DNA of 52,043 bases, taken from the NCBI GenBank assembly GCA_008080685.1, contig VKGY01000014.1, positions 1-52,043 on the forward strand, given 5' to 3'. The DNA is from Spirochaetota bacterium (lineage in GTDB: Bacteria; Spirochaetota; Spirochaetia; Treponematales; Rectinemataceae). Shown one piece after another: positions 1-41,377 of this stretch. The notes under the pieces are model-generated. The model saw only the letters and a program-made list of their open reading frames with translations. It was not told the DNA's origin and did no database searches. The position numbers and the translations under genes are program-made. Each line of letters begins with the position of its first letter. Position 1 is the stretch's first letter.

Positions 1-323
1 ATCAGGCTTCGAATTTCAAAAAGCTCCGAGGGCCTGAATGTCTCGTCCAGGCTTCCCACCGAGGCGATGAGGCCCGAGATGGCTTTGGTCCCTAGGCCCG
101 CTACGATGGTCCCCTTCTGGGGCAGGGTTTCTATCAGGCCGTAATGCTCCAGCTTGGCTAGCGCCTTGCGGACATACCCCCGGCTCACGCCCAGGTCGGC
201 GCAGAGCGACCGCTCGGAAGGCAGCTTTGTCCCCGCCTTGAGGGCCCCTCCCACGATCTGGTCCCTGAGGTAGTTGAGCACGACTAGGTCGTCGCCGACT
301 CCGTCGCTTCTCCTGCCGTTCAT
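1..323 (-). CDS. GntR-family transcriptional regulator, N-terminal wHTH part (gene runs off the window start)
   Basis: Own translation of the minus strand from ATG at 323-321 gives MNGRRSDGVGDDLVVLNYLRDQIVGGALKAGTKLPSERSLCADLGVSRGYVRKALAKLEHYGLIETLPQKGTIVAG... This is the classic GntR winged-helix signature (LPSER.L...LGVSR..VR.AL..L...GLI). It is missing from the ORF track because it is open at the window edge. Confidence 0.8.
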   Translation of the reverse strand, partial: MNGRRSDGVGDDLVVLNYLRDQIVGGALKAGTKLPSERSLCADLGVSRGYVRKALAKLEHYGLIETLPQKGTIVAGLGTKAISGLIASVGSLDETFRPSELFEIRSL

Positions 324-336
324 CCTTGCCGCCTCT

Positions 337-374
337 CGCGCCCTTGTCCGGCCGCGCCCTTGTCCGGCCGCGCC
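337..374. repeat. Tandem direct repeat, 16 bp x 2.4 (CGCGCCCTTGTCCGGC)
   Basis: CGCGCCCTTGTCCGGC occurs at 337-352 and again at 353-368, followed by a partial CGCGCC at 369-374. It lies 14 nt upstream of the GntR start codon. Confidence 0.9.
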
Positions 375-393
375 GGCATTAGGATGCGCCACC

Positions 394-418
394 CTGGTTA
401 CCAATAGTGGTTAACCAG
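394..418. promoter_or_regulatory. Near-palindromic candidate GntR operator (CTGGTTACCA-ATAG-TGGTTAACCAG)
   Basis: The arms CTGGTTACCA and TGGTTAACCAG are near reverse complements of each other. The site sits ~70 nt upstream of the GntR gene at 1-323. GntR-family operators are typically short palindromes with GT..AC cores. Confidence 0.4.
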
Positions 419-503
419 TTATAGAGTATTCACCCAATAGGCGAATTTGTCAAATGAAATTTTCGCCTGAGGGCGGAAGGCGGGTAGGGCAAGTAAGAAT
501 ACG

Positions 504-536
504 GACATGATAACAGGATGATCAGGATCTACAGGA
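504..536 (+). repeat. Dispersed intergenic repeat, copy 1 (GACATGATAAC..GATGATCAGGATCTACAGGA)
   Basis: Shares the consensus GACAnGATAAC-rATGAT(TTT)-CAGGATCyACAGG with copies at 662-692, 781-816 (reverse) and 32024-32076, and with a partial copy at 20590-20603 (reverse). Confidence 0.7.
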
Positions 537-661
537 GCGCCCACCCCAAGGTCTCGCTAAATCAGGAAGCTGCCGCCGCCGCATAGAGCCATCTCCAGCC
601 TGCACAGGTTGTCTTTCGCTATCGTGAGATCTTTCGTTCCACCGCCTTAGGGTAGTGGTGA

Positions 662-692
662 GACATGATAACGATGATTTTCAGGAAGATCT
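662..692 (+). repeat. Dispersed intergenic repeat, copy 2
   Basis: GACATGATAACGATGATTTTCAGGAAGATCT aligns with copies 1, 3 and 4. Confidence 0.7.
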
Positions 693-780
693 AAAAGCGC
701 GGCGGGGGTACAGGCCGTTGTCGGAATTTTTCCTAGATTGAAGGCAGGGTGAGTCGGGGGGTGCTAGGCAGGGCCTGCCG

Positions 781-816
781 ATCCTGCCGATCCTGTGGAT
801 CATCGTTATCCTTGTC
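781..816 (-). repeat. Dispersed intergenic repeat, copy 3 (reverse orientation)
   Basis: The reverse complement reads GACAAGGATAACGATGATCCACAGGATCGGCAGGAT. The copy lies just downstream of the MATE stop codon. Confidence 0.65.
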
Positions 817-845
817 TTATTATCCTGCAAGATCACCCCGGGAGA

Positions 846-2192
846 TCATTCCCGGCCGAGGCGGCGGACCTCGCGGACAAGGAGGGTGCCGGTGACGGCG
901 GAGGAGAGAAGGTCGGCGAGGGGGTAGGATATCCAGACCCCATCCAGGCCGAAGAAACGGGGAAGGATAAGGATGAGAGGGATGAGGATGAAGAACTGAC
1001 GCGAAAGCCCAAGGACCACCGACTCCGTGGCCTTGCCGATGGCTTGGAAATAGGTTGCGCCGGCGATCTGGATCGCCGCCAAGGGAATGAACATCACCAA
1101 AATCCGAAGCACCTTGGCGCTTGAGTCGACCAGGGCGACGTCGGAAGTGAAAAGGCCCATGCCAACCCGGGGCAGAAGCATCATGAAGGCGTAGCCCACC
1201 CCGGCCAGTCCTGTGGCGGTGAAGATAGTAGTCCTTAGGGCGACCTTTACCCGGTCGTACCGCTTCGCGCCGTAGTTGTAGCCCGCGATGGGTTGGAAAC
1301 CCTGGACAATGCCAATGACGGGCAAGATCACGATCATGTTGAGCCTATGGATCATGCCGAAGGTAGTGATCGCCGGGTCCCCGCCGTAACGGCTCAGGGA
1401 AGTATTCACCAGCAGCATGAGAAGGCTCATGCCTGCGGACTGAATGAAGGCGGGAGTGCCCAAGAGAAAACTCTGGCCTAGGATCCTTGGCCTTATGCGG
1501 AATTCAGAAACCAATAAAGGGACAACCGTCTTTCCCCGCCCATAGAGCGAGAAGAGATAGGCTACCGATGCCACCTGGCTGATCACCGTGGCGATCGCCG
1601 CCCCCCTAACTCCCATGCCGAAGCCGAAGATGAAAATTGGATCCAGGATGGTGTTGAGACCAGCGCCCAGGAGCATACCCTTCATCGATGCCTTGGTGTT
1701 CCCCTCAGCTCGGACCAGGTTGGAGGCACACATGGAAAGGGCGAAAAAAAAGAATCCTGCGCCGACAATGCCCAAATACTCCATGGCGATGGGCATGATC
1801 TCCTGGCTTGCGCCGAAAAACGAAAGGATGGGCCTCATGAAGGCGAACAGAAGGGCCACCAGGATAGCGTTCACCAGGATGACCGTGGCGTAGGCAGTGC
1901 CCACAGCCCTCGCCGCGTCGGCGTGGCGCTTTTCCCCCAGCCGCCTGGAGACGATGGAAGCAGTGCCGATGCCCGTGGCCTGAGCCACGGAAGAGACTAT
2001 CATCTGGATGGGAAAGACTATCGACAAGGCGGCGATGGCCAGGGGCCCCACCCCCTGGCCGACGAAAATCGTGTCCACGATGTTGTACAGGGCGTTGACC
2101 ATCATGCCAACCGCGGCAGGGGCGCCCATCTTTATCAGCAGGGGGAATACTCTATCGTTTTCCAGGTAGGTGGTTCTATGGGAAGTGTCCAC
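846..2192 (-). CDS. MATE-family multidrug/toxin efflux transporter
   Basis: The ORF-track protein carries the typical MATE N-terminus, LLIKMGAPAAVGMMVNALYNIVDTIFVGQGVGPLAIAAL, and about 12 hydrophobic segments. The track ORF reaches 2411, but its first 73 codons are Gly/Arg-rich and overlap the TspO-like gene. I place the start at GTG 2192 (VDTSHRTTYLENDRVFPLLIK...). ATG 2129 is the alternative. Confidence 0.8.
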   Translation of the reverse strand: MDTSHRTTYLENDRVFPLLIKMGAPAAVGMMVNALYNIVDTIFVGQGVGPLAIAALSIVFPIQMIVSSVAQATGIGTASIVSRRLGEKRHADAARAVGTAYATVILVNAILVALLFAFMRPILSFFGASQEIMPIAMEYLGIVGAGFFFFALSMCASNLVRAEGNTKASMKGMLLGAGLNTILDPIFIFGFGMGVRGAAIATVISQVASVAYLFSLYGRGKTVVPLLVSEFRIRPRILGQSFLLGTPAFIQSAGMSLLMLLVNTSLSRYGGDPAITTFGMIHRLNMIVILPVIGIVQGFQPIAGYNYGAKRYDRVKVALRTTIFTATGLAGVGYAFMMLLPRVGMGLFTSDVALVDSSAKVLRILVMFIPLAAIQIAGATYFQAIGKATESVVLGLSRQFFILIPLILILPRFFGLDGVWISYPLADLLSSAVTGTLLVREVRRLGRE

Positions 2193-2959
2193 CCGGGTAT
2201 ATGCCCCGCCGCGCCCGCCACCAGAACCTCCGAGTCCCCGCCCGAGCCGGCGACCTGTAGCCGCTTGAGCACGATTCCCGCATAGGCCCAGACTACCACC
2301 AAGGGCGCGGCTACCTGGCGCTTCCACACAGAGAAGCCCAGCGCCACCGCCAACCCCGCGACGATCACAACCACAGTCCAAAACCCCTCGGAAAGCCCAA
2401 ACCCACCCCACCCCAGCTTCACTAAAAGGGCGGTGGCGTTCGCGATAGTCGCCACTGAAATCCAGCCCAGGTAGACCCGCAAAGGCACGGTGAGGGAAAA
2501 AGCCCTTGCCTTGGAAACCCCCGCAGAGGGATCAAGGACGCCGCCCGAGGAAAGCTTGGCTTGGTTCGCCTGCTCAAGGGCGATGAGGGTGGCCAGTATA
2601 CATAGCATCAAAACCATGGCAAGGCCCACGAGCCGCCAATGCCACGCGAAGATCCAAAGCACGTTGGCCGCCATGCTGAGGATGAAAAGCGTCCCGTCCC
2701 TGACAGTCCAGGCTGACCCTTGCCGACTCCCGAAAGCTTCCCGGATTATGGCCGCCGAGTACCCCGCCAGAAGAAGATAGATCAAACCCCAGATGGAAAA
2801 CGTGAGTCCCGCGGGCACAAATAGATTGGGAATTTCGTCCGAAAGCTGCCCCGTGTTCACCCCGTTGAGAGGCAAGGCATTGGCCAGACCGTTTATCGCC
2901 ACTACCACCAGAAAACCCAAGACCGCGATTATCGCAAGACCTTTTAAAACCCCTGCCAT
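2135..2959 (-). CDS. TspO/MBR-like tryptophan-rich membrane protein (long form)
   Basis: 274 aa with multiple TM segments. The motif LSDEIPNLFVPAGLTFSIWGLIYLLL and Trp-rich helices (ANVLWIFAWHWR) resemble the TspO/MBR family. This is assigned by eye only. Confidence 0.5.
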   Translation of the reverse strand: MAGVLKGLAIIAVLGFLVVVAINGLANALPLNGVNTGQLSDEIPNLFVPAGLTFSIWGLIYLLLAGYSAAIIREAFGSRQGSAWTVRDGTLFILSMAANVLWIFAWHWRLVGLAMVLMLCILATLIALEQANQAKLSSGGVLDPSAGVSKARAFSLTVPLRVYLGWISVATIANATALLVKLGWGGFGLSEGFWTVVVIVAGLAVALGFSVWKRQVAAPLVVVWAYAGIVLKRLQVAGSGGDSEVLVAGAAGHIPGWTLPIEPPTWKTIEYSPC

Positions 2960-3061
2960 GCCATTCCTCCAGGTTACTATATCTTATCTAACAAATGTAC
3001 CGAACTTTTGGGGACCGGACAACGAAAGGGGCGCGGAAACGGCAGCTCAGGCGCTTGGAGT

Positions 3062-3925: not shown

Positions 3926-4369
3926 CCCGGTGATTTGCAGATAGGCCTGGGTGGGCAGAACCAGAAAAGTATGGCCCCCAGAATGAGGGGCGTGGCGAAG
4001 TCAGCGAGGCTTAAGCCGAAAAGCAGGAGGATGACGTTGGCGATGCCGGGAATGGAAAGAGGCACGGTTACCGTTCGGAACATCCTGCCCGCCGAGGCCC
4101 CCTAAGGAGAGCGCCGCATCGGCTAGGCTGGCGTTCGAGCAGTTAGTTAGCCCTGCCCCCCCGGTGCTATAGTCGTTCCCATGGCAAATGCGGATACGCG
4201 CGCGGCCATTGCAGACAACGCCGCGAAGGCTGTGATGGGCAAAAGGAAAGCCCTGGCAAAAAGCATGGGCGGCTCCTTTAGGCGCATCCAGTGCACCCCG
4301 GAGCTCCCGCCTTCGGACGTAATGGGCTTCTCGGTTAACAACCAGAAATCCGGAACCTTTGTTTTCCAC
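3926..4369 (-). pseudogene. C-terminal remnant of the cognate ABC permease, frameshifted and 5'-truncated
   Basis: The frame of ORF 4001-4369 gives an EAA-loop-like ...NASLADAALSLGGLGGQ. After a 1-nt shift near 4083-4090 the reading continues in ORF 3859-4083 as MFRTVTVPLSIPGIANVILLLFGLSLADFATPLILG. Only about the last 130 aa of a permease are present, and nothing permease-like lies upstream before the 4560 gene. Confidence 0.6.
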
Positions 4370-4559
4370 CCCAGCCCGGTGATTCCCTACATCCTCCTGG
4401 CCGACAAGATCAACCGCACCATCCCCAGAGAATCAGCCCTGGCGCGCGCCGGGGGGAAGAAAATTGCGCAAGAGAACCTTCCTCGCCAAGAAATTCAACG
4501 AGAAATTCTAGAAGAAAACTTCGGTTCCTCGATAAGCTGAGCCGGGGTATACTCTCCCC

Positions 4560-7500
4560 ATGGCACTGGAAACAAAGGCCGCTTCGGCCAAGGCGATCCG
4601 CTTCAATACCTGGGAGGCGATCCAAGCCCAGCTGGAAAAAATCCGGCTGTGCGAGACCGAAGAGGGCAAGATCGAGTCCCTCATCGAACTCCTGGTCCAT
4701 TTGCGCCTCCTAGGCCAGGACCCCTGCATCCTCGACCAGCGGAACGCAAAAGGGGATATCGAAACCCTCTACGCCCAGATAGAGGCGGGCACCCGCGCCA
4801 TGCTCGACGCAGTGCGCAACCCTCAGGACCGCTTTATCTACTACGCCCGGGAAGTGATCAAGAAGCTTCCTGTCCGGCAGGGCGCCGAGGAAATGATAGA
4901 GCGCATCCGCGCCGACGCGGAAGCCTTCGAAGAAAGCAGGACAGAGGAAGACCCCTTGAGGTGCTTCGCCGGGGACCTGCGGAAAGAGGTCCACCGCAGG
5001 CTTTCGCCCCGGATCATAATGGCCTTCCTGGAGCCCTACATCGCCCTGGCGGTGCGGGGCGACCCCGAGCCGATGGTCAAAGCAGGCTACGTAGCCTTGC
5101 CCGCCCGCTTCGATCCTGCAGAGGAAGCCTCTTACTTCATCGACCTCGCCCAAGACCTCCTCAAGCGCCTCTCCTACCTCTGGGACTACGAATCCGGCGA
5201 CCTGGCCTCCGTCAAAAAAGGCCTGGCGGACAACCTCGACCTCTTCGAGCGCTGCTTCCTTAGGGCCGAGGTGGAGGGCTTCCTGGAACTCCTCACACCG
5301 GAAAACCTGAAAAAGACCCACCTCATCTTCGACCACCTCAAGCGCCTTGCAAGCTTCAAGCACTTCCTCAAGGAATCCTACCGGGAAGGCAGGATAGGCC
5401 TCTACGACCTCATCCTTGTGGACTTGGCCATAGGCCGCTTGGTTTTCCTCCTCGCCAACGACCTGACCAATGACCGATTCGCCGCCGTGACCCCGCGCAA
5501 CATTAGGGACGCCTTGGCCGTAATACTAGAACTCCTCAATATTTCCAGCATCAAGGGACTCTCGATCCGCGATGTCCAAAGACTCCAGTCTGACCTGGAA
5601 GCCCTGATCCGCTCCTCCACCTACGACTTCATCCGCACCAAGAGATGCCTGGGCGCCATCGGCCGGGAACTCCAGAGCTACCTCCAGGCGGACATCATCG
5701 ACGCCATGAGCGGCACCCTCAACCGCGCCCTGGAGACCTATGAGGCGCCGACCTCCAAGCTTTCCCAGATCAAGACCAGGTTTTTCAACAATTTCATCCG
5801 CCGGACCCAGATCCATGTCTTGAGCGAATTCACCGAGAAAGTCGCCTCGGCGGTGGATCGGGAGTTGGAGCGCCAGCGCCAGGAACGCCAGCTCCATTCC
5901 TGCCTGTCCCTGGCCGGGGATGAGGCCTGCGTCGAAGGCTTGGACACCCAGAACCTGGTGGCAGCCACTTGGAAGGACGTAGACCCCAAGGCCAGGGAGT
6001 ATTTCGGCGGCAAGGGAAACTCCATCCTCGACATGGCACAGCTCGGCCTGAATGTCCCTCCGGCCTTCATCCTGGGCTACCCCCTGTTTTCGCGCTTCGC
6101 CGATCCGAGGTTATCCAAGGACTTCGAAGCGCTAGTCTTCTCCCAGGTCGAAGAACTGGGGCGCCGGACCGGCCGGATCCTGGGAGACCCTGAAAGGCCC
6201 CTCATCGTATCCGTCCGCTCCGGAGCCCCCACCTCCATGCCCGGCGTCATGGCCACCATCCTCAACGTAGGCCTCACCCCCGAGGTGCGAAAGGCGCTGG
6301 AAAAACGCCGGGACCCGGCCCTCATCGAAGCCCTCTACGCGCGGTTTTTGGAGAATTGCCGCTCCGCCCTCGCGCTGAGATCCGAGGGCGACCAAGACGC
6401 CGAGGCCTTCTTCAGCCCCGAGTTTCTCACCGATCCCAAGTCCCAGCTTCTGGGCTGCATCCGCCTAGTCTACGAATCCCGGGGGTCCTTGGCGGTCAAG
6501 GCCTATTCCCAAACCTTGGCCACGGACGTGCGGGCCGAAACCGCCGTGACCGTCCAGCGCCTGGTCTTTGGCAATCTCAACGCCCGGTCCCTCTCCGGCG
6601 TCCTCATAACCAGGAACCCCATCACAGGGGAGGACGAGCTTTTCGGAGAGTTCAAGCGCCAAGCCCAGGGCGAGGAAGTGGTCATGGGAAGCGCCAACTG
6701 CCTGCCCATCGCGGCTATAGATCCCGAGATCGCCGCAAGCCTCGAACGCTGCAAGGCTATCCTAATCGCCAAATACCGCCAAGACTTGGACATCGAGTTC
6801 ACCGTGGAAGACGGGACCCTCTACCTCCTCCAAGCCCGGGCCGCCCGCCTCGGCGCCTTCGCGCACCTAGTGGCAGACACGGATCTCCTGTCCCGGGGCG
6901 TTCTGGATCTGGAGGAATACCGGGAGCGGCTGGATAGGCTTGAGATGGCTCACGGATCGGCCGCCCTTCCCCGGGCCGACTTCGGCGCCCGCCTTTGGAA
7001 TCCCCCCATCACCCGAGGGGTTCCCATCAACTCCGGCGTCGTATCCGGCACCCTGGTCTTGAGCCTGGAACGGCTCAAGGAAGCGGAAAATCGAAGGGAG
7101 AGCGTTGTATTCTTCGCCCATACCACCAAGCCCACGGACTTCGCCATCATGAACGGAGCCCATGCCATCGTCACGGTTTACCCAGGCCGGACCTCCCATG
7201 CGGCCATCACCGCTATGGCCATGAACAAACCCTGCATCGTGGGCTGCGCCGACGCCCACATCGACTACGAGAGGCGCCTGATCATCTTCGGGGATTCGGA
7301 AGGGGCGATAATCCACGAGGGCGAGCGTGTCACCGCGGACGGCAACACCGGAGCGGTCTACCGGGGGGTGGCCCCCATTTCCGAAACCTTCCTACCCATC
7401 GCGATGGTGAGCGCCGCAGTCCACCGAGCCACGTCCCCGGAAGAAGCGGTCGTTAAGGTTCGCGGCCTGATAGAATCCAAGAAGGCCATCGTGGACCGGG

Positions 7501-8666
7501 AGACCAACCTGCGAAGGAGAACCCTCAAATCCAGCGACCCCCTCGCCGGGAAGAATATCCTGGTGCGTATAGACGCCAACATCGACTTAAGGGCGAACGC
7601 CCAGCGGGATCCGGACAAGGCCAGGGTCATCCTCGCCGCCGGAGCCAGGAGAGTGGCCCAGGTAGCGCCCACACTGCGGGAACTCCTGGAAAGAGGGGCC
7701 ACGCCGGTGGTCTGCTCCCACCTGGGAGATCCCGGCGCAACCATGGACGCCCACCTTTCCCGGGAAAAAATCTACGCCGAATATTGCTTCGCCCCCTTCG
7801 CCTGGGAATTGGCCAAGTATGTGGAGGGGCGGCTAGTCTATCACGATACGAGCATCGGCTCCTCGGGCTTGCTCCTTAGGAAACAGGACATCGTGCCCGG
7901 GGCGGTGAACCTAGTGGAAAACCTCCGCTTCGCCACAGGGGAAAAGGACAACGACGAAACCTTCGCTCGATACTTGGCCGACCTCTCGGACGGTTGGTAC
8001 ATGAACGACGCCTTCAACGTATGCCTAAGGCGCCACGCATCCATAGTCGGCGCGCCCCGGTTCCTCGAACACCGCCTCGCCGGACCCCTGGTAGCCAAGG
8101 AACTGGAAGCCCTTGAGCTCCTCCTCGCCAACCCTCCCCGCCCCTTTGTAGCCGTGTTCTGCGGCAGGGAAGTGGAAGCCCAATTCGGCGTCATGGCGGC
8201 CATGCTACCCAGGGTCGACCGCCTGGCCATCCTCCTCGATGCCGAGCGGGACGATCAGCGCCCCGACAGTCGGCACGCCGCCGAGTCAATGATAGCCAAT
8301 TTCATGGACGCCTATCCCGACAAGGTCCGCCTCGCCTCGGAAGGCAAAAGGGATTCCATCGCCGGCCTCGCCGAAGACCTCTCGGGCTCCGGCACCATCC
8401 TCTGGTCAGGGCCGGCTGGCTTGGATGAGAAGTCCCTTTCCTGCCTTGAAACCCAAGCCTCGCCAGCCCCAAAAGACCCCCATGTCGCTGCCCTACACGA
8501 AGCCTTGTGCGGAGCCGCCCTCACCGTGGTGTGTAGCGAGGAGGAAAAACAATATTCGGAGCTGGCAGGTCCTGGAATCCATCTATCCAAGGGGCCAAGG
8601 GCGTTTTTGGAGTACCTGGAAAGGCTTTCCCTTCCCGGGATCACCGCCCTCGACCCGGCGCGCTAG
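4560..8666 (+). CDS. Chimeric 1368-aa phosphotransferase: helical N-domain + PPDK ATP-grasp + phospho-His swivel domain + PGK-like domain
   Basis: PPDK N-domain motifs: GGKGNSILDMAQLGLNVPPAFIL, IVSVRSGAPTSMPGVMATILNVGLT, AVTVQRLVFGNLNARSLSGVLITRNPITGE, DIEFTVEDGTLYLLQARAAR. Swivel domain: AIVTVYPGRTSHAAITAMAMNKPCIVGC, with His880 at nt 7197-7199. PGK-like motifs from about nt 7542: LAGKNILVRIDANIDL, VVCSHLGDPG, VENLRFATGEKDNDETF, YMNDAFNVCLRRHASIVG, TILWSGPAG, LEYLERLSLPGITAL. There is no recognisable SD; TATACT sits at 4548-4553. Confidence 0.85.
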   Translation: MALETKAASAKAIRFNTWEAIQAQLEKIRLCETEEGKIESLIELLVHLRLLGQDPCILDQRNAKGDIETLYAQIEAGTRAMLDAVRNPQDRFIYYAREVIKKLPVRQGAEEMIERIRADAEAFEESRTEEDPLRCFAGDLRKEVHRRLSPRIIMAFLEPYIALAVRGDPEPMVKAGYVALPARFDPAEEASYFIDLAQDLLKRLSYLWDYESGDLASVKKGLADNLDLFERCFLRAEVEGFLELLTPENLKKTHLIFDHLKRLASFKHFLKESYREGRIGLYDLILVDLAIGRLVFLLANDLTNDRFAAVTPRNIRDALAVILELLNISSIKGLSIRDVQRLQSDLEALIRSSTYDFIRTKRCLGAIGRELQSYLQADIIDAMSGTLNRALETYEAPTSKLSQIKTRFFNNFIRRTQIHVLSEFTEKVASAVDRELERQRQERQLHSCLSLAGDEACVEGLDTQNLVAATWKDVDPKAREYFGGKGNSILDMAQLGLNVPPAFILGYPLFSRFADPRLSKDFEALVFSQVEELGRRTGRILGDPERPLIVSVRSGAPTSMPGVMATILNVGLTPEVRKALEKRRDPALIEALYARFLENCRSALALRSEGDQDAEAFFSPEFLTDPKSQLLGCIRLVYESRGSLAVKAYSQTLATDVRAETAVTVQRLVFGNLNARSLSGVLITRNPITGEDELFGEFKRQAQGEEVVMGSANCLPIAAIDPEIAASLERCKAILIAKYRQDLDIEFTVEDGTLYLLQARAARLGAFAHLVADTDLLSRGVLDLEEYRERLDRLEMAHGSAALPRADFGARLWNPPITRGVPINSGVVSGTLVLSLERLKEAENRRESVVFFAHTTKPTDFAIMNGAHAIVTVYPGRTSHAAITAMAMNKPCIVGCADAHIDYERRLIIFGDSEGAIIHEGERVTADGNTGAVYRGVAPISETFLPIAMVSAAVHRATSPEEAVVKVRGLIESKKAIVDRETNLRRRTLKSSDPLAGKNILVRIDANIDLRANAQRDPDKARVILAAGARRVAQVAPTLRELLERGATPVVCSHLGDPGATMDAHLSREKIYAEYCFAPFAWELAKYVEGRLVYHDTSIGSSGLLLRKQDIVPGAVNLVENLRFATGEKDNDETFARYLADLSDGWYMNDAFNVCLRRHASIVGAPRFLEHRLAGPLVAKELEALELLLANPPRPFVAVFCGREVEAQFGVMAAMLPRVDRLAILLDAERDDQRPDSRHAAESMIANFMDAYPDKVRLASEGKRDSIAGLAEDLSGSGTILWSGPAGLDEKSLSCLETQASPAPKDPHVAALHEALCGAALTVVCSEEEKQYSELAGPGIHLSKGPRAFLEYLERLSLPGITALDPAR

Positions 8667-9697
8667 AATGAGATGGTGTAGGCGGCATTCAAGCGAATGA
8701 TCGCAGGAGGGGTCCTGAAAATCAGGTCGCCTCCTATCTGGACCGAGGAACCGCCGCCAAAATCATAGCGCAGGTAGGCGGTCGTGGAGAGCTCGTTCAC
8801 GTACCAGTTGAAGTAGTCGCCCAGATGGTAGGCCAGGGTAGCCCCCGCGAAGAGAGGAATCCCGAGGAATTCGTATTCGCCGTTGAGTTTGATCCCGAAA
8901 AAAAGGCTTCCGTTGCGATAGTTGACGTCCCCGAAGGCCCGCAGGATGAAGGCGGGGAATTTGTAGTAGCCGTCCACCAGGAGGTCGTGCTCTTTGGCGG
9001 CGTCGGCATAGCGGTAGCCCAGGTAGAGCTGGTAGTCAAGCCGATTGATCAATCCCAGGCCCAAGGCCAGCTCCTTGTTCATGAGGGTGGGATCCTTGGC
9101 GTCCTCCAGTTCTTCCATCCTGTAGGAAGCCTTGAGGACCAGGCGGTCGCCCCACAGGTATTCGACCCCAACGTTGATGTCGTCGAAGGTGGCGGAAAAG
9201 GTCGCGGACGCCACATCCACCGGAAGGAAAGCCCCTATGGACAAACCCGGTAGCGGATAGATCCGGGCCAAAAGGCCGGTCTTGCCGTTGGCTATCCTGG
9301 CGGAGAAACCGGTGGCGTCGAAGTTGGCGAATCGGTAGCCGCCGTCGTGCCAGACCTTTCCCATGTCCAGGCGCAGCTTCCCTCCGAAAAGGGCGAAGGC
9401 GGCGCTGTAGTCCCTTAGATTGCCCGGCACCAGCCAGTCGTCCCCGTCCCATTGCGCGGTCATGGTCCAGCCCACGTCCTTCCAATTCCAATTGAAGTTG
9501 AGGAAATTGTACACCCCCTTGTCCCCGCCCATCCAATCAGGGCCTATTCCCGTGGTCATGTCGTGGAAATTGAAATAGAAATTGCCGCGGTTCCACATAG
9601 AAAACTTTGGTTGGGGAGGGAGTTCCTGGGCAAAAATTGGCCCCGAGGCAAGGATTGCGAAGGCTGCGAGGATAAGGATTAAGGCAAGGCGTTTCAT
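8663..9697 (-). CDS. Putative outer-membrane beta-barrel protein (secreted)
   Basis: It has a signal peptide (MKRLALILILAAFAILASGPIFAQ). The sequence is aromatic/Gly-rich with an alternating pattern throughout. It ends in ...AAYTISF, the C-terminal Phe typical of OMPs. No specific family was recognised. Confidence 0.55.
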   Translation of the reverse strand: MKRLALILILAAFAILASGPIFAQELPPQPKFSMWNRGNFYFNFHDMTTGIGPDWMGGDKGVYNFLNFNWNWKDVGWTMTAQWDGDDWLVPGNLRDYSAAFALFGGKLRLDMGKVWHDGGYRFANFDATGFSARIANGKTGLLARIYPLPGLSIGAFLPVDVASATFSATFDDINVGVEYLWGDRLVLKASYRMEELEDAKDPTLMNKELALGLGLINRLDYQLYLGYRYADAAKEHDLLVDGYYKFPAFILRAFGDVNYRNGSLFFGIKLNGEYEFLGIPLFAGATLAYHLGDYFNWYVNELSTTAYLRYDFGGGSSVQIGGDLIFRTPPAIIRLNAAYTISF

Positions 9698-13657: not shown

Positions 13658-13905
13658 AGCATCATCTAAAAGTAAGGAGGCGCGTAGGAACACACCACCG
13701 AACATATCGCCTAGTACCGGTGAAACGCTAGGGGCAGTCTATTCTCATAGCTACAATTCCGGAAAAATCCCTGCTGCTGAACAACCTTTACACGAATTCT
13801 ATCGCAGCTGACTGCCATTAGCTCTCTTCCCTTTGAAATTCAACCTGTTTAAACACCACAATAGTCAGACTTTTGGCAAGAGTCTCACATATTTGAATTT
13901 CGCTC

Positions 13906-13934
13906 TTGACTTCCAAAAAACTGGATCTTACAGT
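13906..13934 (+). promoter_or_regulatory. Candidate sigma70-type promoter of the GntR-UROD-Tct operon (TTGACT-N17-TACAGT)
   Basis: TTGACT at 13906-13911, a 17-nt spacer, then TACAGT at 13929-13934. The operator follows immediately downstream. Confidence 0.45.
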
Positions 13935-13935
13935 C

Positions 13936-13962
13936 TTGGTATACTGGTATACCGGTATACCA
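13936..13962. promoter_or_regulatory. Candidate GntR/FadR-type operator: three GGTATAC(C) units including a perfect 18-bp palindrome
   Basis: The sequence is TTGGTATACTGGTATACCGGTATACCA. TGGTATACCGGTATACCA (13945-13962) equals its own reverse complement. It sits between the -10 element and the GTG start of the GntR gene. Confidence 0.6.
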
Positions 13963-13985
13963 CTTTATGGAAATGCGAGGTTTTT

Positions 13986-14741
13986 GTGTTCGATGACGCA
14001 ACCGAGCCTTTGGATCGCCTGAACCTGCCTGTGGAGAGCGCTCTCTCCCGCCAGGTTTTCCGCAAGATCCGACAATGGATACGGGAAGGGCGGCTGAAGG
14101 AGGGGGACCTTTTGCCCTCCGAACGGGAGCTCGCGAAGGTGTTCGAGACATCCCGGGTGCCGGTGAGGGAAGCCCTGAAAGTGCTGGAATTCATGGGAAT
14201 CGCCGAACGCGTCGCCGGCAAAGGTGTGTACTTGCGTCGCATAAGCGTTGGGAACCTAATAAGCAATATTGATTTCCTCCTGATGTCGTCGGCGCAGAAC
14301 CTTATGGATCTTTTTGAAGCCCGGGAATGTCTCGAGATCCAAGCAGCAAGACTTGCGGCAGCCAGGCGGACCGAAATTGACCTCTCGGATATCAAGGAAG
14401 CGCTTGAGGCGATGGAACAAAACCTTACCGCTGCCGCAGTTCCCCTGGGCGTATCCATGGATTTCCACGCCGCGGTCATCGCCGCATCGCACAATATGGT
14501 TTTGGGGGAGCTTAGCCTCTATCTGGCGGATTGGCTGAGGCTGGCCCGCGACCAATTCCTCGAACTCTCAAAGGTCCATGAGAGGGGGATGAGCGACCAT
14601 AGGGCCATATACGAGGCCATCCGCGAATCGGACGGCGAAAGAGCCGCCCAAGCGATGCGGACGCATCTTACCCGAACCAGGACAGTCATTGAGGATGCGT
14701 TGAAGGCACAACTTGATTCTCGGGAAGGCGGGGCCAGATGA
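13986..14741 (+). CDS. GntR-family (FadR/FCD-type) transcriptional regulator
   Basis: The wHTH reads LPSERELAKVFETSRVPVREALKVLEFMGI, followed by a helical C-terminal domain. The track ORF begins at 13833, but those codons cover the promoter and operator. In-frame GTG 13986 is preceded by GAGG with a 5-nt spacer and gives a typical 251-aa protein. Confidence 0.8.
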   Translation: MFDDATEPLDRLNLPVESALSRQVFRKIRQWIREGRLKEGDLLPSERELAKVFETSRVPVREALKVLEFMGIAERVAGKGVYLRRISVGNLISNIDFLLMSSAQNLMDLFEARECLEIQAARLAAARRTEIDLSDIKEALEAMEQNLTAAAVPLGVSMDFHAAVIAASHNMVLGELSLYLADWLRLARDQFLELSKVHERGMSDHRAIYEAIRESDGERAAQAMRTHLTRTRTVIEDALKAQLDSREGGAR

Positions 14742-15721
14742 CCCTGAAGGAAGCCAGGATACGGAGCGCCTTGGCCGGAGAAAAGACCGAGGTCCAGCCA
14801 TTCAGTCTCTGGACCCATTTCCCGGAAATCGACATGGATCCCCAGGCCTTGGCCGAACATACCTACCGGTTCTACAAAGATTTCGATCTGGATTTCATAA
14901 AGAACATGCCCAACGGGATGTTCTCCGTGGAAGATTGGGGCTGCGCCTGCGACTATTCGGCCATCCCAAAAGGGGGCGTGGCGGAAGTGACGCGCTTCGC
15001 CGTCGAAAGCTCGAAGGATTGGAACTTCCTATCCCGGCCTAAGCCTGGCGTGGGAGCCATGGGACGGGAACTGAAATCCTTGAGGATGTTGGCGGAAATG
15101 ACAAAGGGCGAGGTGCCCATCGTCGCAACAATATTCAGCCCTGTTACCACCGCTGAAAAACTCTCCGGGATCCCTCTGGCGGATTCGGCGCTGGAAAACC
15201 CCGAAGGATTCAAGGACGCCCTCGGAGCCATAGCCGATGTGACCGCAGAATTTGCGCTGCAGGCTGTCGAAGCGGGTTGTGCGGGCGTTTATTTCGCGAG
15301 CCAAGTCTCCAGCTACCAAGCCTCAACCAGGGACTTCTATCGGGAATTCGGCGTTCCTTTTGACAGGGACGTCCTTACCGCCCTTCCCGGCGAGTCTTGG
15401 TTCAATGTCATGCATCTTCATGGAGACGACATCATGTTCGATCTTACAAAGGACTATCCGGTGCAGGCGATCAGTTGGCATGTGTGGGAGACAGCGCCAA
15501 GCCTCGATGAGTTCCTTAGGCAAGCGCCGAATCGGTGCATAGTAGGCGGTCTCCGCCGCTTTAGAATTACGGCCGGGGATCGCGAGGCCTTGGATCAGGA
15601 TATTCGGCTGACTCTGGAGGCTACAGGAAGCCGCAAGGTAATCCTGGCTCCCGGATGCGTCATCCGATACCCCTTCGACACTGCTACCCTGCGTTATGTC
15701 AGGGATTCAATCAGGAGGTAG
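14738..15721 (+). CDS. Uroporphyrinogen-decarboxylase (URO-D) family protein, function unknown
   Basis: 327 aa. Its overall pattern resembles the URO-D/MtaA-type fold family (assigned by eye). Its ATG overlaps the GntR stop codon (ATGA at 14738-14741). Confidence 0.5.
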   Translation: MTLKEARIRSALAGEKTEVQPFSLWTHFPEIDMDPQALAEHTYRFYKDFDLDFIKNMPNGMFSVEDWGCACDYSAIPKGGVAEVTRFAVESSKDWNFLSRPKPGVGAMGRELKSLRMLAEMTKGEVPIVATIFSPVTTAEKLSGIPLADSALENPEGFKDALGAIADVTAEFALQAVEAGCAGVYFASQVSSYQASTRDFYREFGVPFDRDVLTALPGESWFNVMHLHGDDIMFDLTKDYPVQAISWHVWETAPSLDEFLRQAPNRCIVGGLRRFRITAGDREALDQDIRLTLEATGSRKVILAPGCVIRYPFDTATLRYVRDSIRR

Positions 15722-15724
15722 GCG

Positions 15725-16195
15725 ATGGCAAAGGCGGAAGCGTGGAAACCTACGCTAAGCCCAGGATTCTGGGGCTCCCTCGCCGTGATGGGAGTTGGGA
15801 TTGTATTTTTCATCTACTCGCTGCAGTTCCCCTACACCAGCGAGATCGGGCCTGGGCCGGGTTTTTTCCCCCGGTGGCTTTCTGGATTCCTCATCGTCCT
15901 AGGCGTTCTGTATATGTCCAACAGCATCAGGGGAAAGGATAAAAGCGAAAAACTGCCCTCCGAGAAGGGCCTTTCATCCATACTTTTTATCTTAGGATCG
16001 ATGGTGGGCTATGTGGCGCTCATCGGGTTCCTGGGATTCATCACCACCAGTGCCGCCTTCCTTTTCCTTCTGCTTCGCAAAGCCTACCGCTGGTACGTAT
16101 CCTTGGCGATTTCCGCCATCGCATCCCTCTTCCTGTATGCCTTGTTCGCCCTCTTCCTGAGAGTCCAGCTTCCCATGAACGGCTTGGGTTTCTAG
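15725..16195 (+). CDS. tctB: Tripartite tricarboxylate transporter small membrane subunit TctB
   Basis: 156 aa with four TM segments. It lies immediately upstream of the large TctA-type subunit, which is the canonical Tct arrangement. Confidence 0.7.
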   Translation: MAKAEAWKPTLSPGFWGSLAVMGVGIVFFIYSLQFPYTSEIGPGPGFFPRWLSGFLIVLGVLYMSNSIRGKDKSEKLPSEKGLSSILFILGSMVGYVALIGFLGFITTSAAFLFLLLRKAYRWYVSLAISAIASLFLYALFALFLRVQLPMNGLGF

Positions 16196-16199
16196 GAGG

Positions 16200-17711: not shown

Positions 17712-17788
17712 CCTTCCAGGCGCCGTCATTGAACCAGGTTCCAGCGCGGTTTCATGGAAGCCGCCTAGCGTTTTGAAGGAGGAAAGAT

Positions 17789-34215: not shown

Positions 34216-34228
34216 GAAGGAGCGTAAG

Positions 34229-37106: not shown

Positions 37107-37121
37107 CCTCAAGGAGGATGG

Positions 37122-41343: not shown

Positions 41344-41377
41344 CCGGGGCGGAAGGCCCTAGGGCCTTTCGCCCCGG
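41344..41377. terminator. Long GC hairpin between convergent genes (possible bidirectional terminator)
   Basis: CCGGGGCG-GAAGGCCC-TA-GGGCCTT-T-CGCCCCGG is a near-perfect palindrome. It overlaps the last codons and stop of the GH31 gene. No clear U-tract is present. Confidence 0.35.

What the first reader, a model, noticed from the sequence alone, without database searches (positions are those of the whole stretch)
4560..8666. PPDK ATP-grasp and phospho-His swivel fused to a PGK-like domain in place of the PEP/pyruvate barrel
What the sequence shows:
- It is one uninterrupted 1368-codon ORF.
- aa ~480-765 carry PPDK nucleotide-binding motifs: GGKGNSILDMAQLGLNVPPAFIL, IVSVRSGAPTSMPGVMATILNVGLT, FGNLNARSLSGVLITRNPITGE and DIEFTVEDGTLYLLQARAAR.
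- aa ~830-940 are the swivel domain, with the catalytic TSH (His880, nt 7197-7199).
- Where PPDK and PEP synthase carry the PEP/pyruvate TIM barrel, aa ~995-1368 are PGK-like instead: LAGKNILVRIDANIDL, CSHLGDPG, ENLRFATGEKDNDETF, NDAFNVCLRRHASIVG, TILWSGPAG and LEYLERLSLPGITAL.
- The PGK 3-phosphoglycerate basic patch looks mostly kept (R of VRID, H of SHLG, R of ENLRF, R of RRHAS).
- The Gly-rich nucleotide motifs of the PGK C-domain are degenerate (SKGPRA for STGGGA, VCSEE for GGGD).

Inference: ATP is processed by the PPDK ATP-grasp. Phosphate is then relayed by His880 to a 3-PG-like acceptor bound by a PGK-derived domain that no longer binds nucleotide. That would be an AMP-forming, dikinase-style route to an acyl or sugar phosphate.

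The first ~480 aa are all-helical and I cannot assign them to a family. I do not recognise this architecture as a characterised enzyme.
Basis: partly seen in the sequence, partly recalled or inferred. Interest (0 to 1): 0.85.

Follow-up and report, generated by a model that had tools for sequence, protein, structure and literature searches.

The report
PPDK-type dikinase fused to PGK
A real, conserved but unstudied 1368-residue bacterial protein joins the ATP-splitting and phosphate-carrying parts of pyruvate phosphate dikinase to a phosphoglycerate-kinase body that has lost its own ATP site, so it may link the 3-phosphoglycerate step of glycolysis to AMP and pyrophosphate, a reaction not known so far.

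Summary
Window 4560-8666 (+) is one 1368-codon ORF. It has PPDK_N (E 2.5e-20), the swivel domain with His880 in TSH (E 3e-18) and PGK (E 1e-44), and no PEP/pyruvate barrel. It is not a mis-join: about 78 protein clusters from independent assemblies share the architecture.

The family has two clades:
- Clade 1 (Spirochaetota, including the window) keeps the 3-PG-binding lobe. A conserved acidic/Cys/Pro set replaces the PGK nucleotide and catalytic motifs.
- Clade 2 (Riflebacteria, Elusimicrobiota) keeps a fully canonical PGK.

Both clades share a signature that the 110 nearest ordinary PGKs lack: Arg of SHLGRP changed to Asp/Glu, plus an SREE insertion. The N-terminal 470 residues form a confident all-helical domain with no PDB match, found only in this family and in one relative that lacks PGK.

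I found no conserved gene neighbours and no literature on this protein.

Best reading (about 0.4): a swivelling-His dikinase catalysing 3-PG + ATP + Pi <-> 1,3-BPG + AMP + PPi.

Rivals: a VadK-like regulatory phospho-His kinase with a PGK-derived sensor, or a dikinase whose acceptor binds the N-terminal domain or acts in trans.

No chemistry has been shown.

The parts
4560..8666 (+). Whole gene: 1368-aa N-helical / PPDK ATP-grasp / swivel-His / PGK-like fusion protein
   Evidence: One ORF from ATG to stop. Pfam PF01326, PF00391 and PF00162 match, and PF02896 does not. About 78 homologous clusters share the architecture.
4560..5969 (+). aa 1-470: family-specific all-alpha domain with invariant motifs (FAGDLRKEVHRRLSPRI at about 136-152; RFFNNFIRRTQxH at about 407-419)
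   Evidence: AF2 pLDDT 87, pTM 0.81, about 20 helices. Foldseek against PDB gives no hit below E 0.2. There is no Pfam or PDB sequence hit. Only 17 hits came from 1.84 billion representatives, all of them this family, its fragments or P0098. 17% of positions are invariant.
5970..6869 (+). aa 471-770: PPDK-type ATP-grasp (nucleotide-binding) domain
   Evidence: PF01326. Aligns to maize PPDK 20-142 and 198 onward. GGKGN, SVRSG, SMPGxMxTxLNxG, DIEFTVE and LQxR are invariant in 52 aligned members.
6870..7049 (+). aa 771-830: linker 1 between the ATP-grasp and the swivel domain
   Evidence: Aligns with the PPDK linker region. Helical in the model.
7050..7394 (+). aa 831-945: phospho-histidine swivel domain
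   Evidence: PF00391 at aa 847-931, E 3e-18. [YF]PGRTSHAAI is invariant in both clades.
7197..7199 (+). Codon CAT of His880, the predicted phosphocarrier histidine (TSH)
   Evidence: Position verified. Aligns with the catalytic His of PPDK. Invariant in the family.
7395..7541 (+). aa 946-994: poorly conserved linker 2 with a long helix, joining the swivel domain to the PGK module
   Evidence: Least conserved segment, 0% invariant positions. Helices at model residues 487-495 and 500-522. It occupies the position of the PPDK linker to the PEP/pyruvate barrel.
7542..8129 (+). aa 995-1190: PGK N-lobe (3-PG / 1,3-BPG binding) with D1005, N1007, R1031, H1054, R1123, R1157 and H1159
   Evidence: PF00162 profile 6-212, E 1e-44. 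Ligand residues are conserved in 46/46 and 28/28 clusters, except R1031 at 39/46. It has the fewest clade-specific switches, 3 in 196 positions.
7713..7769 (+). aa 1052-1070: CSHLGDPG plus the insertion ending in SRE(K). This is the family signature: Arg65 (human PGK numbering) changed to Asp1057, with invariant R1068-E1069.
   Evidence: D in 46/46 of clade 1 and E/D in 28/28 of clade 2; R1068 and E1069 are invariant. Of the 110 nearest ordinary PGKs, 109 have SHLGRP and 1 has SHLGKP, and almost all (108) show no such insertion.
8130..8663 (+). aa 1191-1368: reduced PGK C-lobe without nucleotide motifs, plus the conserved C-terminal helix (FLEYLERLSLPGI)
   Evidence: Only weak, collinear matches to the PGK C-lobe. 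The whole-chain PGK fold is retained, TM 0.64-0.70. Part of the lobe is deleted relative to PGK.
8169..8171 (+). Codon of Glu1204, replacing the catalytic Lys215 (human PGK numbering)
   Evidence: E/D in 44/46 clade-1 clusters and K in 27/28 clade-2 clusters.
8532..8549 (+). aa 1325-1330, CSEEEK: conserved Cys plus an acidic cluster in place of the GGGD loop
   Evidence: In clade 1: C 45/46, E/D1327 43/46, E/D1329 42/46, K/R1330 46/46. Clade 2 has GGGDSASAVK here.
8586..8603 (+). aa 1343-1348, SKGPRA, in place of the phosphate-gripping STGGGA loop
   Evidence: In clade 1: S 46/46, G 46/46, P 46/46, R 34/46. Clade 2 has STGGGA.

Best explanation
The protein is a swivelling-histidine dikinase of the PPDK lineage. 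The PEP/pyruvate barrel has been exchanged for a PGK module.

Proposed cycle:
1. The ATP-grasp (aa 471-770) binds ATP and Pi, and pyrophosphorylates and then phosphorylates His880. This releases AMP and PPi.
2. The swivel domain (aa 831-945) turns on its two linkers.
3. It hands the phosphoryl group to the carboxylate of 3-phosphoglycerate held on the PGK N-lobe (D1005, N1007, R1031, H1054, R1123, R1157).

Net reaction: 3-PG + ATP + Pi <-> 1,3-bisphosphoglycerate + AMP + PPi. From textbook free energies this is near equilibrium, roughly -5 to -8 kJ/mol in the ATP-forming direction. In a fermenting anaerobe it would most plausibly run glycolytically, making ATP from AMP + PPi as PPDK does at the pyruvate step.

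In the window's clade the PGK C-lobe no longer binds nucleotide. Its conserved Glu/Asp/Cys cluster may instead hold Mg2+ or dock the His domain.

What is shown: the domain anatomy, the conservation of all three sites, and the loss of the nucleotide site. What is inferred: His-to-3-PG transfer, Pi/PPi coupling, the direction of the reaction, and the role of the acidic cluster. The N-terminal helical domain has no assigned role in this scheme; it may be regulatory, an oligomerisation domain or an anion-binding domain.
For: - The PGK module sits directly after the swivel domain and a linker of about 50 residues, as the PEP/pyruvate barrel does in PPDK. No PF02896 is present.
- The catalytic motifs of the ATP-grasp and the TSH histidine are invariant across 52 aligned members at 40-83% identity.
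- The 3-PG ligand residues are invariant in both clades, and the N-lobe has the fewest clade-specific changes. In clade 1 the nucleotide and Lys215 machinery is gone in all 46 clusters. A substrate site is therefore kept under selection without its usual phosphoryl partner.
- The replaced C-lobe residues are themselves conserved: E/D1204 44/46, C1325 45/46, E/D1327 43/46, E/D1329 42/46, P1346 46/46. This argues for a new function rather than decay.
- A family-wide change beside the 3-PG phosphate site (Arg to Asp/Glu plus an SREE insertion) is absent from the 110 closest ordinary PGKs.
- The ATP-grasp and swivel score 205 bits against PPDK structures and 34 bits against PEP synthase.
- Dikinase modules with other acceptor domains are an established principle, for example rifampin phosphotransferase (PMC4844700).
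Against: - Clade 2 keeps every canonical PGK nucleotide and catalytic residue. The fusion therefore arose with a working ADP/ATP site, and a His donor is not obviously needed there.
- P0098 has the N-terminal domain, ATP-grasp and swivel but ends before any PGK. The core may have another acceptor.
- In PGK the 3-PG carboxylate faces the C-lobe, and that lobe is still present. Access for a 110-residue His domain is unproven.
- The AF2 model resembles the PPDK conformer with His at the ATP-grasp (TM 0.48, against 0.32-0.34 for the other conformers).
- Swivel-domain differences between the clades are all conservative. There is no sign that the swivel domain co-adapted to the altered C-lobe.
- Replacing the transition-state Lys215 with an acidic residue is not what simple phosphoryl transfer would need.
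- There is no conserved gene neighbourhood.
Confidence: 0.4

Rival explanations
1. Regulatory or sensor kinase. The ATP-grasp and swivel act as an autophosphorylating histidine kinase, like M. tuberculosis VadK. The PGK-derived module is a catalytically dead in the window's clade and senses 3-PG or 1,3-BPG, setting the phospho-His state. The N-terminal domain, or a partner protein, is the output. There is no net metabolic flux through the protein.
For: - VadK is a PPDK that lost its barrel. It autophosphorylates on His422 and regulates methylcitrate-cycle enzymes by binding them (PMC13400623).
- The best NCBIfam hit is the short, 534-position PPDK-like model NF004531 (305 bits).
- Clade 1 has the typical look of a pseudoenzyme: the ligand site is kept and the catalytic Lys and Gly loops are lost.
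- PGK fused to sensor domains, and 'dead' PGKs, are known in kinetoplastids (PMC7729029).
- The gene stands alone, with no pathway neighbours.
- The N-terminal domain is strongly conserved and has no role in the dikinase scheme.
Against: - Clade 2 keeps a full, apparently active PGK that is 47-50% identical to ordinary PGKs. That is not what a pure sensor needs.
- The conserved new acidic/Cys residues in the clade-1 C-lobe suggest chemistry or docking rather than a passive sensor.
- The score against NF004531 is below its cut-off (305 against 456) and about equal to the score for true PPDK (297).
- No partner gene is conserved nearby.
Confidence: 0.25
2. Dikinase with a different acceptor. The substrate phosphorylated by His880 binds the N-terminal helical domain, or is a separate protein or small molecule. 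The PGK module is an accessory: a local ATP supplier from 1,3-BPG in clade 2, reduced to an allosteric 3-PG site in clade 1.
For: - P0098 consists of the homologous N-terminal domain (hhalign probability 96.9%, E 1.8e-10 over 391 columns), ATP-grasp and swivel. It ends with a true stop before any PGK.
- Other PPDK-derived proteins carry long N-terminal parts and end with the swivel domain: P0102, and the enolase fusions P0082 and P0083.
- The N-terminal domain has invariant Arg/Lys/His-rich motifs (LRKExH, NxFxRxxxxH) that are partly kept even in P0098.
- Rifampin phosphotransferase shows that an acceptor domain need not be C-terminal.
Against: - No ligand or fold relative could be found for the N-terminal domain.
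- The PGK N-lobe is as conserved as the catalytic domains and carries family-specific changes at its substrate site. That is hard to explain for a mere accessory.
- P0098 is a single distant sequence whose N-terminus is cut off by the contig end.
Confidence: 0.2
3. Ordinary phosphoglycerate kinase, as public annotation calls it, or an assembly or gene-call artefact joining two genes.
For: NCBI names family members 'phosphoglycerate kinase'. In three MAG records only the last 394-406 codons are annotated.
Against: - In the window protein, Lys215, Lys219, the GGG, GGGD and STGGGA loops and Asn336 are all replaced, and only the first half of the PGK profile matches.
- The full reading frame is open in the records that have truncated annotation.
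- About 78 clusters from independent assemblies share the fusion.
- Composition is smooth across the junction.
Confidence: 0.02

Closest known systems
Pyruvate, phosphate dikinase (PPDK, EC 2.7.9.1; TIGR01828; structures 1kbl, 1vbg)
   Same: The ATP-grasp and the swivel phospho-His domain have all catalytic motifs (GGKG, SVRSG, MPG loop, DIEFT, LQxR, TSH), and the order ATP-grasp, linker, swivel, linker, third domain is the same. PDB sequence matches score 205 bits. Foldseek E is 1e-42.
   Different: There is no PEP/pyruvate TIM barrel (PF02896 absent). A PGK module takes its place, and there are 470 extra N-terminal residues. The score of 297 bits is far below the equivalog cut-off of 843.
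Phosphoglycerate kinase (PGK, EC 2.7.2.3; PF00162)
   Same: The two-lobe fold is kept (TM 0.64-0.70 to whole PGK chains). The N-lobe has the 3-PG ligands Asp, Asn, Arg38, His62, Arg122 and Arg170 (human numbering). In sister clade 2 the whole domain is canonical and 47-50% identical to free PGKs.
   Different: In the window protein the nucleotide and catalytic residues are replaced and part of the C-lobe is deleted. Arg65 is Asp, and there is an SREE insertion that 110 close free PGKs lack. It is fused behind a dikinase module.
VadK / Rv1127c-type truncated PPDK (PMC13400623)
   Same: It is a PPDK-derived ATP-grasp plus phospho-His domain without the barrel. VadK autophosphorylates on the equivalent His with ATP and Mg2+.
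   Different: VadK is about 490 aa, ends after the His domain and has no N-terminal helical domain or PGK. The window protein scores 305 bits on NF004531, below the cut-off of 456. That NF004531 is the VadK family is my recollection and was not tested here.
Rifampin phosphotransferase and other PEPS/PPDK-like dikinases with alternative acceptor domains (PMC4844700)
   Same: The working principle is the same: ATP-grasp, mobile phospho-His domain, and a non-homologous acceptor-binding domain. The RPH authors describe a large unexplored group of such enzymes.
   Different: The domain order differs (in RPH the His domain is C-terminal and the acceptor domain central), as do the acceptor (an antibiotic) and the products (RPH releases Pi). 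There is no sequence relation outside the two shared domains.
PGK fusion proteins (PGK-TIM of Thermotoga; PAS-PGK and PGK-CNB 'dead' PGKs of kinetoplastids; PMC7729029)
   Same: These are PGK domains fused to other modules, and some have lost catalytic residues.
   Different: None is fused to a dikinase module. They have different partners and occur in other organisms.

Membership tests
Pyruvate, phosphate dikinase (EC 2.7.9.1) | PPDK-type ATP-grasp nucleotide-binding domain with catalytic motifs | tested here: met
   PF01326 E 2.5e-20. Aligns to maize PPDK. The motifs are invariant in the family.
Pyruvate, phosphate dikinase (EC 2.7.9.1) | Swivel domain with the phosphocarrier His in a TSH motif | tested here: met
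   PF00391 E 3e-18. His880 is in PGRTSHAAI and is invariant.
Pyruvate, phosphate dikinase (EC 2.7.9.1) | C-terminal PEP/pyruvate-binding TIM barrel (PF02896) | tested here: not met
   No PF02896 hit at E <= 1. None of the 78 family clusters carries it. aa 995-1368 have the PGK fold.
Pyruvate, phosphate dikinase (EC 2.7.9.1) | Reaches the curated equivalog score (TIGR01828, 843 bits) | tested here: not met
   296.7 bits.
Phosphoglycerate kinase (EC 2.7.2.3) | N-lobe 3-PG binding residues (Asp23, Asn25, Arg38, His62, Arg65, Arg122, Arg170; human numbering, recalled from the PGK literature) | tested here: inconclusive
   Six of the seven are present and conserved. Arg65 is Asp1057 in all of clade 1 and Glu/Asp in clade 2. 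Binding was not tested.
Phosphoglycerate kinase (EC 2.7.2.3) | C-lobe nucleotide and phosphoryl-transfer residues (Lys215, Lys219, GGG, Asn336, GGGD, STGGGA) | tested here: not met
   All are replaced in the window protein and throughout clade 1. They are intact in clade 2.
Phosphoglycerate kinase (EC 2.7.2.3) | Full-length match to the PGK profile | tested here: not met
   Only profile positions 6-212 of 379 match in the window protein. In clade-2 P0058 positions 6-377 match, at 401 bits.
Phosphoglycerate kinase (EC 2.7.2.3) | Two-lobe PGK fold | tested here: met
   Foldseek TM (normalised to the target) is 0.64-0.70 to many PGK chains, E about 1e-19.
VadK-like truncated PPDK (NF004531) | ATP-grasp plus His domain, no barrel, with the protein ending after the His domain | tested here: not met
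   The first two points hold. However, a 420-residue PGK module follows and a 470-residue domain precedes. The score of 305 bits is below the cut-off of 456.
VadK-like truncated PPDK (NF004531) | ATP- and Mg2+-dependent autophosphorylation of the His | not testable with these tools
   Needs recombinant protein. Shown for VadK only.
Swivelling-His dikinases with alternative acceptor domains (RPH-type principle) | ATP-grasp, mobile His domain and a third, non-barrel substrate domain in one chain | tested here: met
   Precedent: PMC4844700.
Swivelling-His dikinases with alternative acceptor domains (RPH-type principle) | Phosphoryl transfer from the His to the substrate bound on the third domain | not testable with these tools
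   No model coordinates or assays were available. The AF2 model shows the conformer engaged with the ATP-grasp.

The most novel reading that the evidence does not exclude
The family catalyses a reaction that is not in the enzyme catalogue: 3-phosphoglycerate, phosphate dikinase (1,3-BPG + AMP + PPi <-> 3-PG + ATP + Pi). This would be a third PPi-linked step of glycolysis, beside PPi-phosphofructokinase and PPDK.

In clade 2, which also keeps the ordinary ADP/ATP site, the two half-activities on one bound phosphoglycerate would add up to ADP + Pi <-> AMP + PPi. That is a direct enzymatic link between the adenylate and pyrophosphate pools, and a candidate answer to the question of where PPi-dependent glycolysis gets its PPi.
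Probability: 0.3. Interest if true: 0.9.

Novelty: new variant of a known kind. Interest (0 to 1): 0.75.

Why it matters
If the relay is real, lower glycolysis has a PPi/AMP-coupled alternative to phosphoglycerate kinase, a step thought to be invariant. This would change ATP-yield accounting for energy-limited anaerobes (Spirochaetota, Riflebacteria, Elusimicrobiota). It would also give a tractable handle on how PPi-dependent glycolysis balances its PPi budget.

Whatever the chemistry turns out to be, three things stand:
- The family shows a central-metabolic enzyme (PGK) captured as the third station of a swivelling-His machine, with a natural before-and-after pair: clade 2 has an intact nucleotide site and clade 1 a rebuilt one.
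- It has a 470-residue domain of unknown fold.
- Public annotation calls these proteins plain 'phosphoglycerate kinase', and in three MAG records it cuts the gene down to the PGK part. Metabolic reconstructions of these organisms may therefore be wrong at this step.

Tried and rejected
- **Chimeric assembly or gene-call artefact: rejected.** About 78 clusters share the architecture, intact copies lie on Mb-size contigs, and GC content is smooth.
- **Hidden PEP/pyruvate barrel: rejected**.
- **Conserved operon partners: none.** The flanks differ in the window, L002, L003, L005, L006, L007, L009 and L012. A MoxR / unknown / DUF4129 trio lies upstream only in the two closest relatives and is reduced to a stub in the window.
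- **Identity of the N-terminal domain: nothing found.** I tried Pfam, NCBIfam, PDB sequence search, Foldseek against PDB, and an exhaustive HMMER search of 1.84 billion representatives. The only matches outside the full-length fusion proteins were short fragments of them and P0098. hhalign against the enolase-dikinase fusions and P0081 was negative.
- **Free-standing PGKs with the family signature: none real.** The candidates were truncated annotations (L012-L014) or a frameshifted copy (L015).
- **Co-adaptation of the swivel domain to the altered C-lobe: not seen.** Only conservative clade switches were found. The idea that Arg877 (PGRTSH) is a fusion-specific docking residue was dropped, because an ordinary PPDK (P0080) also has GGRTSH.
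- **Defence-system membership: none** (PADLOC).
- **Literature: nothing.** Seven searches for a PPDK-PGK fusion, a phosphoglycerate dikinase or a PPi-dependent PGK found nothing.
- **Could not be done.** The structure tool returns no coordinates, so I could not measure distances from His880 to the 3-PG site.

Full report
**1. The observation**

Window 4560..8666 (+) is a single ATG-to-stop ORF of 1368 codons.

- Pfam gives PGK (PF00162, E 1.2e-44, aa 995-1224, matching only profile positions 6-212 of 379), PPDK_N (PF01326, E 2.5e-20) and the PEP-utilising mobile domain (PF00391, E 3.1e-18, aa 847-931). There is no hit to the PEP/pyruvate barrel PF02896, even at E <= 1.
- NCBIfam places aa 474-941 on PPDK models: NF004531 at 305 bits and TIGR01828 at 297 bits, both below their cut-offs.
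- Against PDB sequences the first 949 residues score about 205 bits on PPDKs and only 34 bits on PEP synthases. Nothing matches aa 1-470.
- The last 419 residues match the PGK N-lobe strongly. They match the C-lobe only weakly, but in the right order.

**2. It is a real gene and a real family**

A search of 5.8 billion protein clusters returned about 78 clusters of 1300-1450 residues that carry the same three Pfam domains, at 40-81% identity.

- Intact copies lie on contigs of 3.19 Mb, 1.65 Mb and 0.51 Mb from independent assemblies.
- An 82%-identical copy is collinear through the junction.
- GC content is smooth over nt 7350-7600.

The mis-join worry is therefore settled without read mapping.

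Named sources are all MAGs: Spirochaetota (including Rectinema sp.), Elusimicrobiota, and Candidatus Riflebacteria / Ozemobacteraceae. They are annotated only as 'phosphoglycerate kinase' or '3-phosphoglycerate kinase/phosphohistidine swiveling domain-containing protein'.

**3. Anatomy**

- An AF2 model of aa 461-1368, built with a 52-sequence alignment, has mean pLDDT 85 and pTM 0.73.
- Foldseek aligns it to PPDK (E 1e-42) and, separately, to whole PGK chains (E about 1e-19, TM 0.64-0.70 on the PGK length). The C-terminal module therefore keeps the two-lobe PGK fold.
- The model fits the PPDK conformer with the His domain at the nucleotide site (1kbl, 1dik; TM 0.46-0.48) better than the other conformers (2r82, 1vbg; TM 0.32-0.35). 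AF2 therefore placed the swivel domain on the ATP-grasp.
- aa 1-487 fold confidently (pLDDT 87, pTM 0.81) into about 20 helices, with no PDB fold match (best E 0.2, TM below 0.2).

Conservation by domain:

| Segment | Fraction of invariant positions |
|---|---|
| Swivel domain | 0.28 |
| ATP-grasp | 0.24 |
| PGK N-lobe | 0.21 |
| N-terminal domain | 0.17 |
| PGK C-lobe | 0.08 |
| Linker between swivel and PGK | 0 |

**4. Two clades: the main new finding**

I aligned the PGK parts of 74 full-length members with a free PGK fetched in locus L004 and with yeast PGK. Two groups emerged.

Clade 1 has 46 clusters, is from Spirochaetota and includes the window.
- It keeps Asp, Asn, Arg38, His62, Arg122, Arg170 and His172 (human numbering). 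These are D1005, N1007, R1031, H1054, R1123, R1157 and H1159 in the window protein.
- Seven clusters have Ser at the Arg38 column, with an Arg one turn later.
- It has lost every nucleotide and phosphoryl-transfer element: Lys215 to Glu/Asp (44/46), Lys219 to mostly Gln, GGG to hydrophobic residues, Asn336 to Ser/Ala, GGGD to Cys plus a gap, and STGGGA to S-[ST]-G-P-[RS]-A. Part of the lobe is deleted.

Clade 2 has 28 clusters, at 40-43% identity to the window protein, from Riflebacteria and Elusimicrobiota.
- It keeps all of these residues.
- P0058 matches the PGK profile end to end at 401 bits.
- Its PGK part is 47-50% identical to ordinary 400-residue PGKs.

**5. The loss is not decay**

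In clade 1 the former phosphate site carries a conserved new set of residues:
- E/D1204, 44/46
- C1325, 45/46
- E/D1327, 43/46
- E/D1329, 42/46
- K/R1330, 46/46
- P1346, 46/46
- R1347, 34/46

Positions conserved within each clade but different between them are rarest in the PGK N-lobe (3 of 196). They are most frequent, relative to conserved positions, in the C-lobe.

**6. A family signature at the 3-PG site**

- In both clades the Arg of SHLGRP (Arg65) is acidic: Asp in 46/46 of clade 1 and Glu/Asp in 28/28 of clade 2.
- A roughly nine-residue insertion follows, with invariant Arg-Glu (SREE[IV]Y).
- Among the 110 closest free PGKs, 109 have SHLGRP, one has SHLGKP, and almost all (108) show no such insertion.
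- From memory of the yeast PGK mutagenesis literature, which I did not check here, Arg65 lies at the periphery of the cleft, contacts the 3-phosphate, and is not essential for catalysis.

**7. The N-terminal domain and a relative without PGK**

- An exhaustive HMMER search of 1.84 billion representatives with aa 1-470 found only 17 proteins. They are family members, their fragments, and P0098.
- P0098 is 1010 aa. Its N-terminus is cut off by the contig end. It carries the homologous helical domain (hhalign probability 96.9%, E 1.8e-10 over 391 columns), PPDK_N and the swivel domain. It ends at a true stop about 50 residues after the swivel, with a peptidase gene following.
- Other PPDK-derived proteins also end with the swivel domain after long, unrelated N-terminal parts: P0102, and the 2040-residue enolase fusions P0082 and P0083.

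**8. Context**

No neighbour is conserved across the family. The window has MatE, ABC transporter genes and unknowns around the gene, and the other loci differ.

The two closest relatives (L001, L005) have a MoxR / 412-aa unknown / DUF4129 trio directly upstream on the same strand. In the window only a 64-residue MoxR stub remains, at 4247-4438.

**9. Mechanism**

I favour the dikinase relay, with confidence about 0.4:
1. ATP (with Pi) is processed on the ATP-grasp.
2. His880 carries the phosphoryl group.
3. The swivel domain delivers it to 3-PG on the PGK N-lobe.

The net reaction is 3-PG + ATP + Pi <-> 1,3-BPG + AMP + PPi.

The arguments for it:
- The PGK module is placed exactly where PPDK has its third station.
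- All three sites are invariant.
- In clade 1 the 3-PG site persists without any nucleotide partner.
- The former nucleotide site has been rebuilt with conserved residues.
- The family signature lies at the 3-PG site.
- The ATP-grasp has PPDK character rather than PEP-synthase character.

Combining textbook values (my calculation, not a tool result) puts the ATP-forming direction at roughly -5 to -8 kJ/mol, so the reaction is reversible. The values used were about -19 kJ/mol for PGK in the ATP-forming direction and about +12 kJ/mol for AMP + PPi -> ADP + Pi.

A speculative role for the acidic cluster is to hold the Mg2+ that normally arrives with the nucleotide, by analogy with the Glu/Asp Mg2+ site of the PPDK barrel (recalled, not tested).

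The weak points:
- The nucleotide site is intact in clade 2.
- P0098 has no PGK.
- It is unproven that the His domain can sterically reach a carboxylate that faces the C-lobe.
- The swivel domain shows no sign of co-adaptation.
- I had no access to model coordinates.

**10. Rivals**

(a) A VadK-like regulatory histidine kinase with a PGK-derived 3-PG/1,3-BPG sensor, confidence 0.25. VadK (Rv1127c) is a barrel-less PPDK that autophosphorylates on His422 and regulates methylcitrate-cycle enzymes (PMC13400623).

(b) A dikinase whose acceptor binds the N-terminal domain or acts in trans, with PGK as an accessory, confidence 0.2.

(c) A plain PGK or an artefact, confidence 0.02. This is contradicted for the window protein.

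**11. Comparison with what is known, and novelty**

- It is not a PPDK: there is no barrel and the score is below the cut-off.
- It is not a functional PGK in the window's clade: the catalytic Lys and the nucleotide loops are absent.
- It is not a VadK-type protein: extra domains sit on both sides and the score is below the cut-off.
- It works, most likely, on the established swivelling-His dikinase principle, which is known to accept other third domains. Rifampin phosphotransferase is an example, and its authors describe a large unexplored group of such enzymes (PMC4844700).
- A review of PGK fusions lists TIM, PAS and cyclic-nucleotide-binding partners, and no dikinase (PMC7729029).
- Seven literature searches found nothing on this architecture or on the proposed reaction.

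I therefore rate it a new variant of a known kind. It is uncharacterised, and a new central-metabolic reaction is a plausible but unproven reading.

**12. Verdict**

- Interest is 0.75. This is high because the protein is real, conserved and unstudied, and could add a PPi-linked step to glycolysis. It is tempered because no chemistry has been shown and two regulatory or alternative-acceptor readings remain open.

Noticed in passing
window 4247-4438 (+), inside ORF 4181..4540: A 64-residue remnant of a MoxR-type AAA+ ATPase (Pfam AAA_3 profile 16-82 of 131, E 3e-17; 77% identical to aa 53-116 of the L005 MoxR) lies directly upstream of the fusion gene. In the two closest relatives (L001 3615-6971, L005 6442-10004) a complete MoxR / 412-aa unknown / DUF4129 trio occupies this position on the same strand. 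The window therefore carries a deletion scar. The trio is absent upstream in more distant family members.
   Followed up: yes
L012 4992-9218, L013 4992-9218, L014 2409-6635: In three NCBI MAG records (GCA_035402685.1, GCA_035352635.1, GCA_028691595.1) only the last 394-406 codons of the fusion gene are annotated, as 'phosphoglycerate kinase'. The preceding 3 kb or so is left without any gene call. The reading frame is nevertheless open, and collinear with the full 1409-residue protein. Public annotation therefore hides the fusion in these genomes.
   Followed up: yes
P0098 (JGI 3300050821, 4376-bp contig, gene 1-3033): This relative has the family's N-terminal helical domain, PPDK_N and the swivel domain, but has a true stop before any PGK module. 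A Peptidase_M18 gene follows. It is the only such protein found. It shows that the N-domain / ATP-grasp / swivel unit can exist without PGK.
   Followed up: partly
P0082, P0083 (2039 and 2047 aa; Acidobacteria MAG and JGI metagenomes): These giant proteins combine an enolase (Enolase_C at aa about 270-577, end of Enolase_N at about 755-788), about 740 unassigned residues, and a PPDK-type ATP-grasp plus swivel His at the extreme C-terminus, again without the PEP/pyruvate barrel. This is a second case of a glycolytic enzyme that binds a high-energy phospho-compound being fused to a dikinase module. P0102 (1373 aa) has 870 unassigned residues before the same module.
   Followed up: partly
L015 2859-7065: This is a copy of the fusion gene broken into at least five frames, called as separate 621-, 200- and 354-residue products. 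The contig also has fragmented GH4 genes, so this is most likely an error-prone assembly rather than natural gene fission.
   Followed up: partly
window 8663-9697 (-): This 344-codon ORF is convergent with the fusion gene and overlaps its stop codon by 4 bases. It has no Pfam or PADLOC match. Whether it is a real gene was not established.
   Followed up: partly
window 13833-18772 (+): A GntR/FCD regulator is followed by a URO-D-like protein and a complete TctB-TctA-TctC tripartite tricarboxylate transporter. This looks like a small uptake operon in which a uroporphyrinogen-decarboxylase-family enzyme of unclear role sits next to the transporter.
   Followed up: no
window 33367-38249 (+): A split transketolase (N-terminal and C-terminal halves as separate genes) is followed, after a 157-codon ORF at 35215-35688 that I did not scan, by an aldehyde-dehydrogenase-family protein and an ATP-grasp_2 / CoA-ligase (succinyl-CoA-synthetase beta-like) protein. 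Nearby are a ROK-family protein (30792-31982), a tocopherol-cyclase-like protein (29709-30704, -) and a GH31 glycosidase (41359-43464, -). No canonical glycolytic gene was seen among the ORFs scanned.
   Followed up: no
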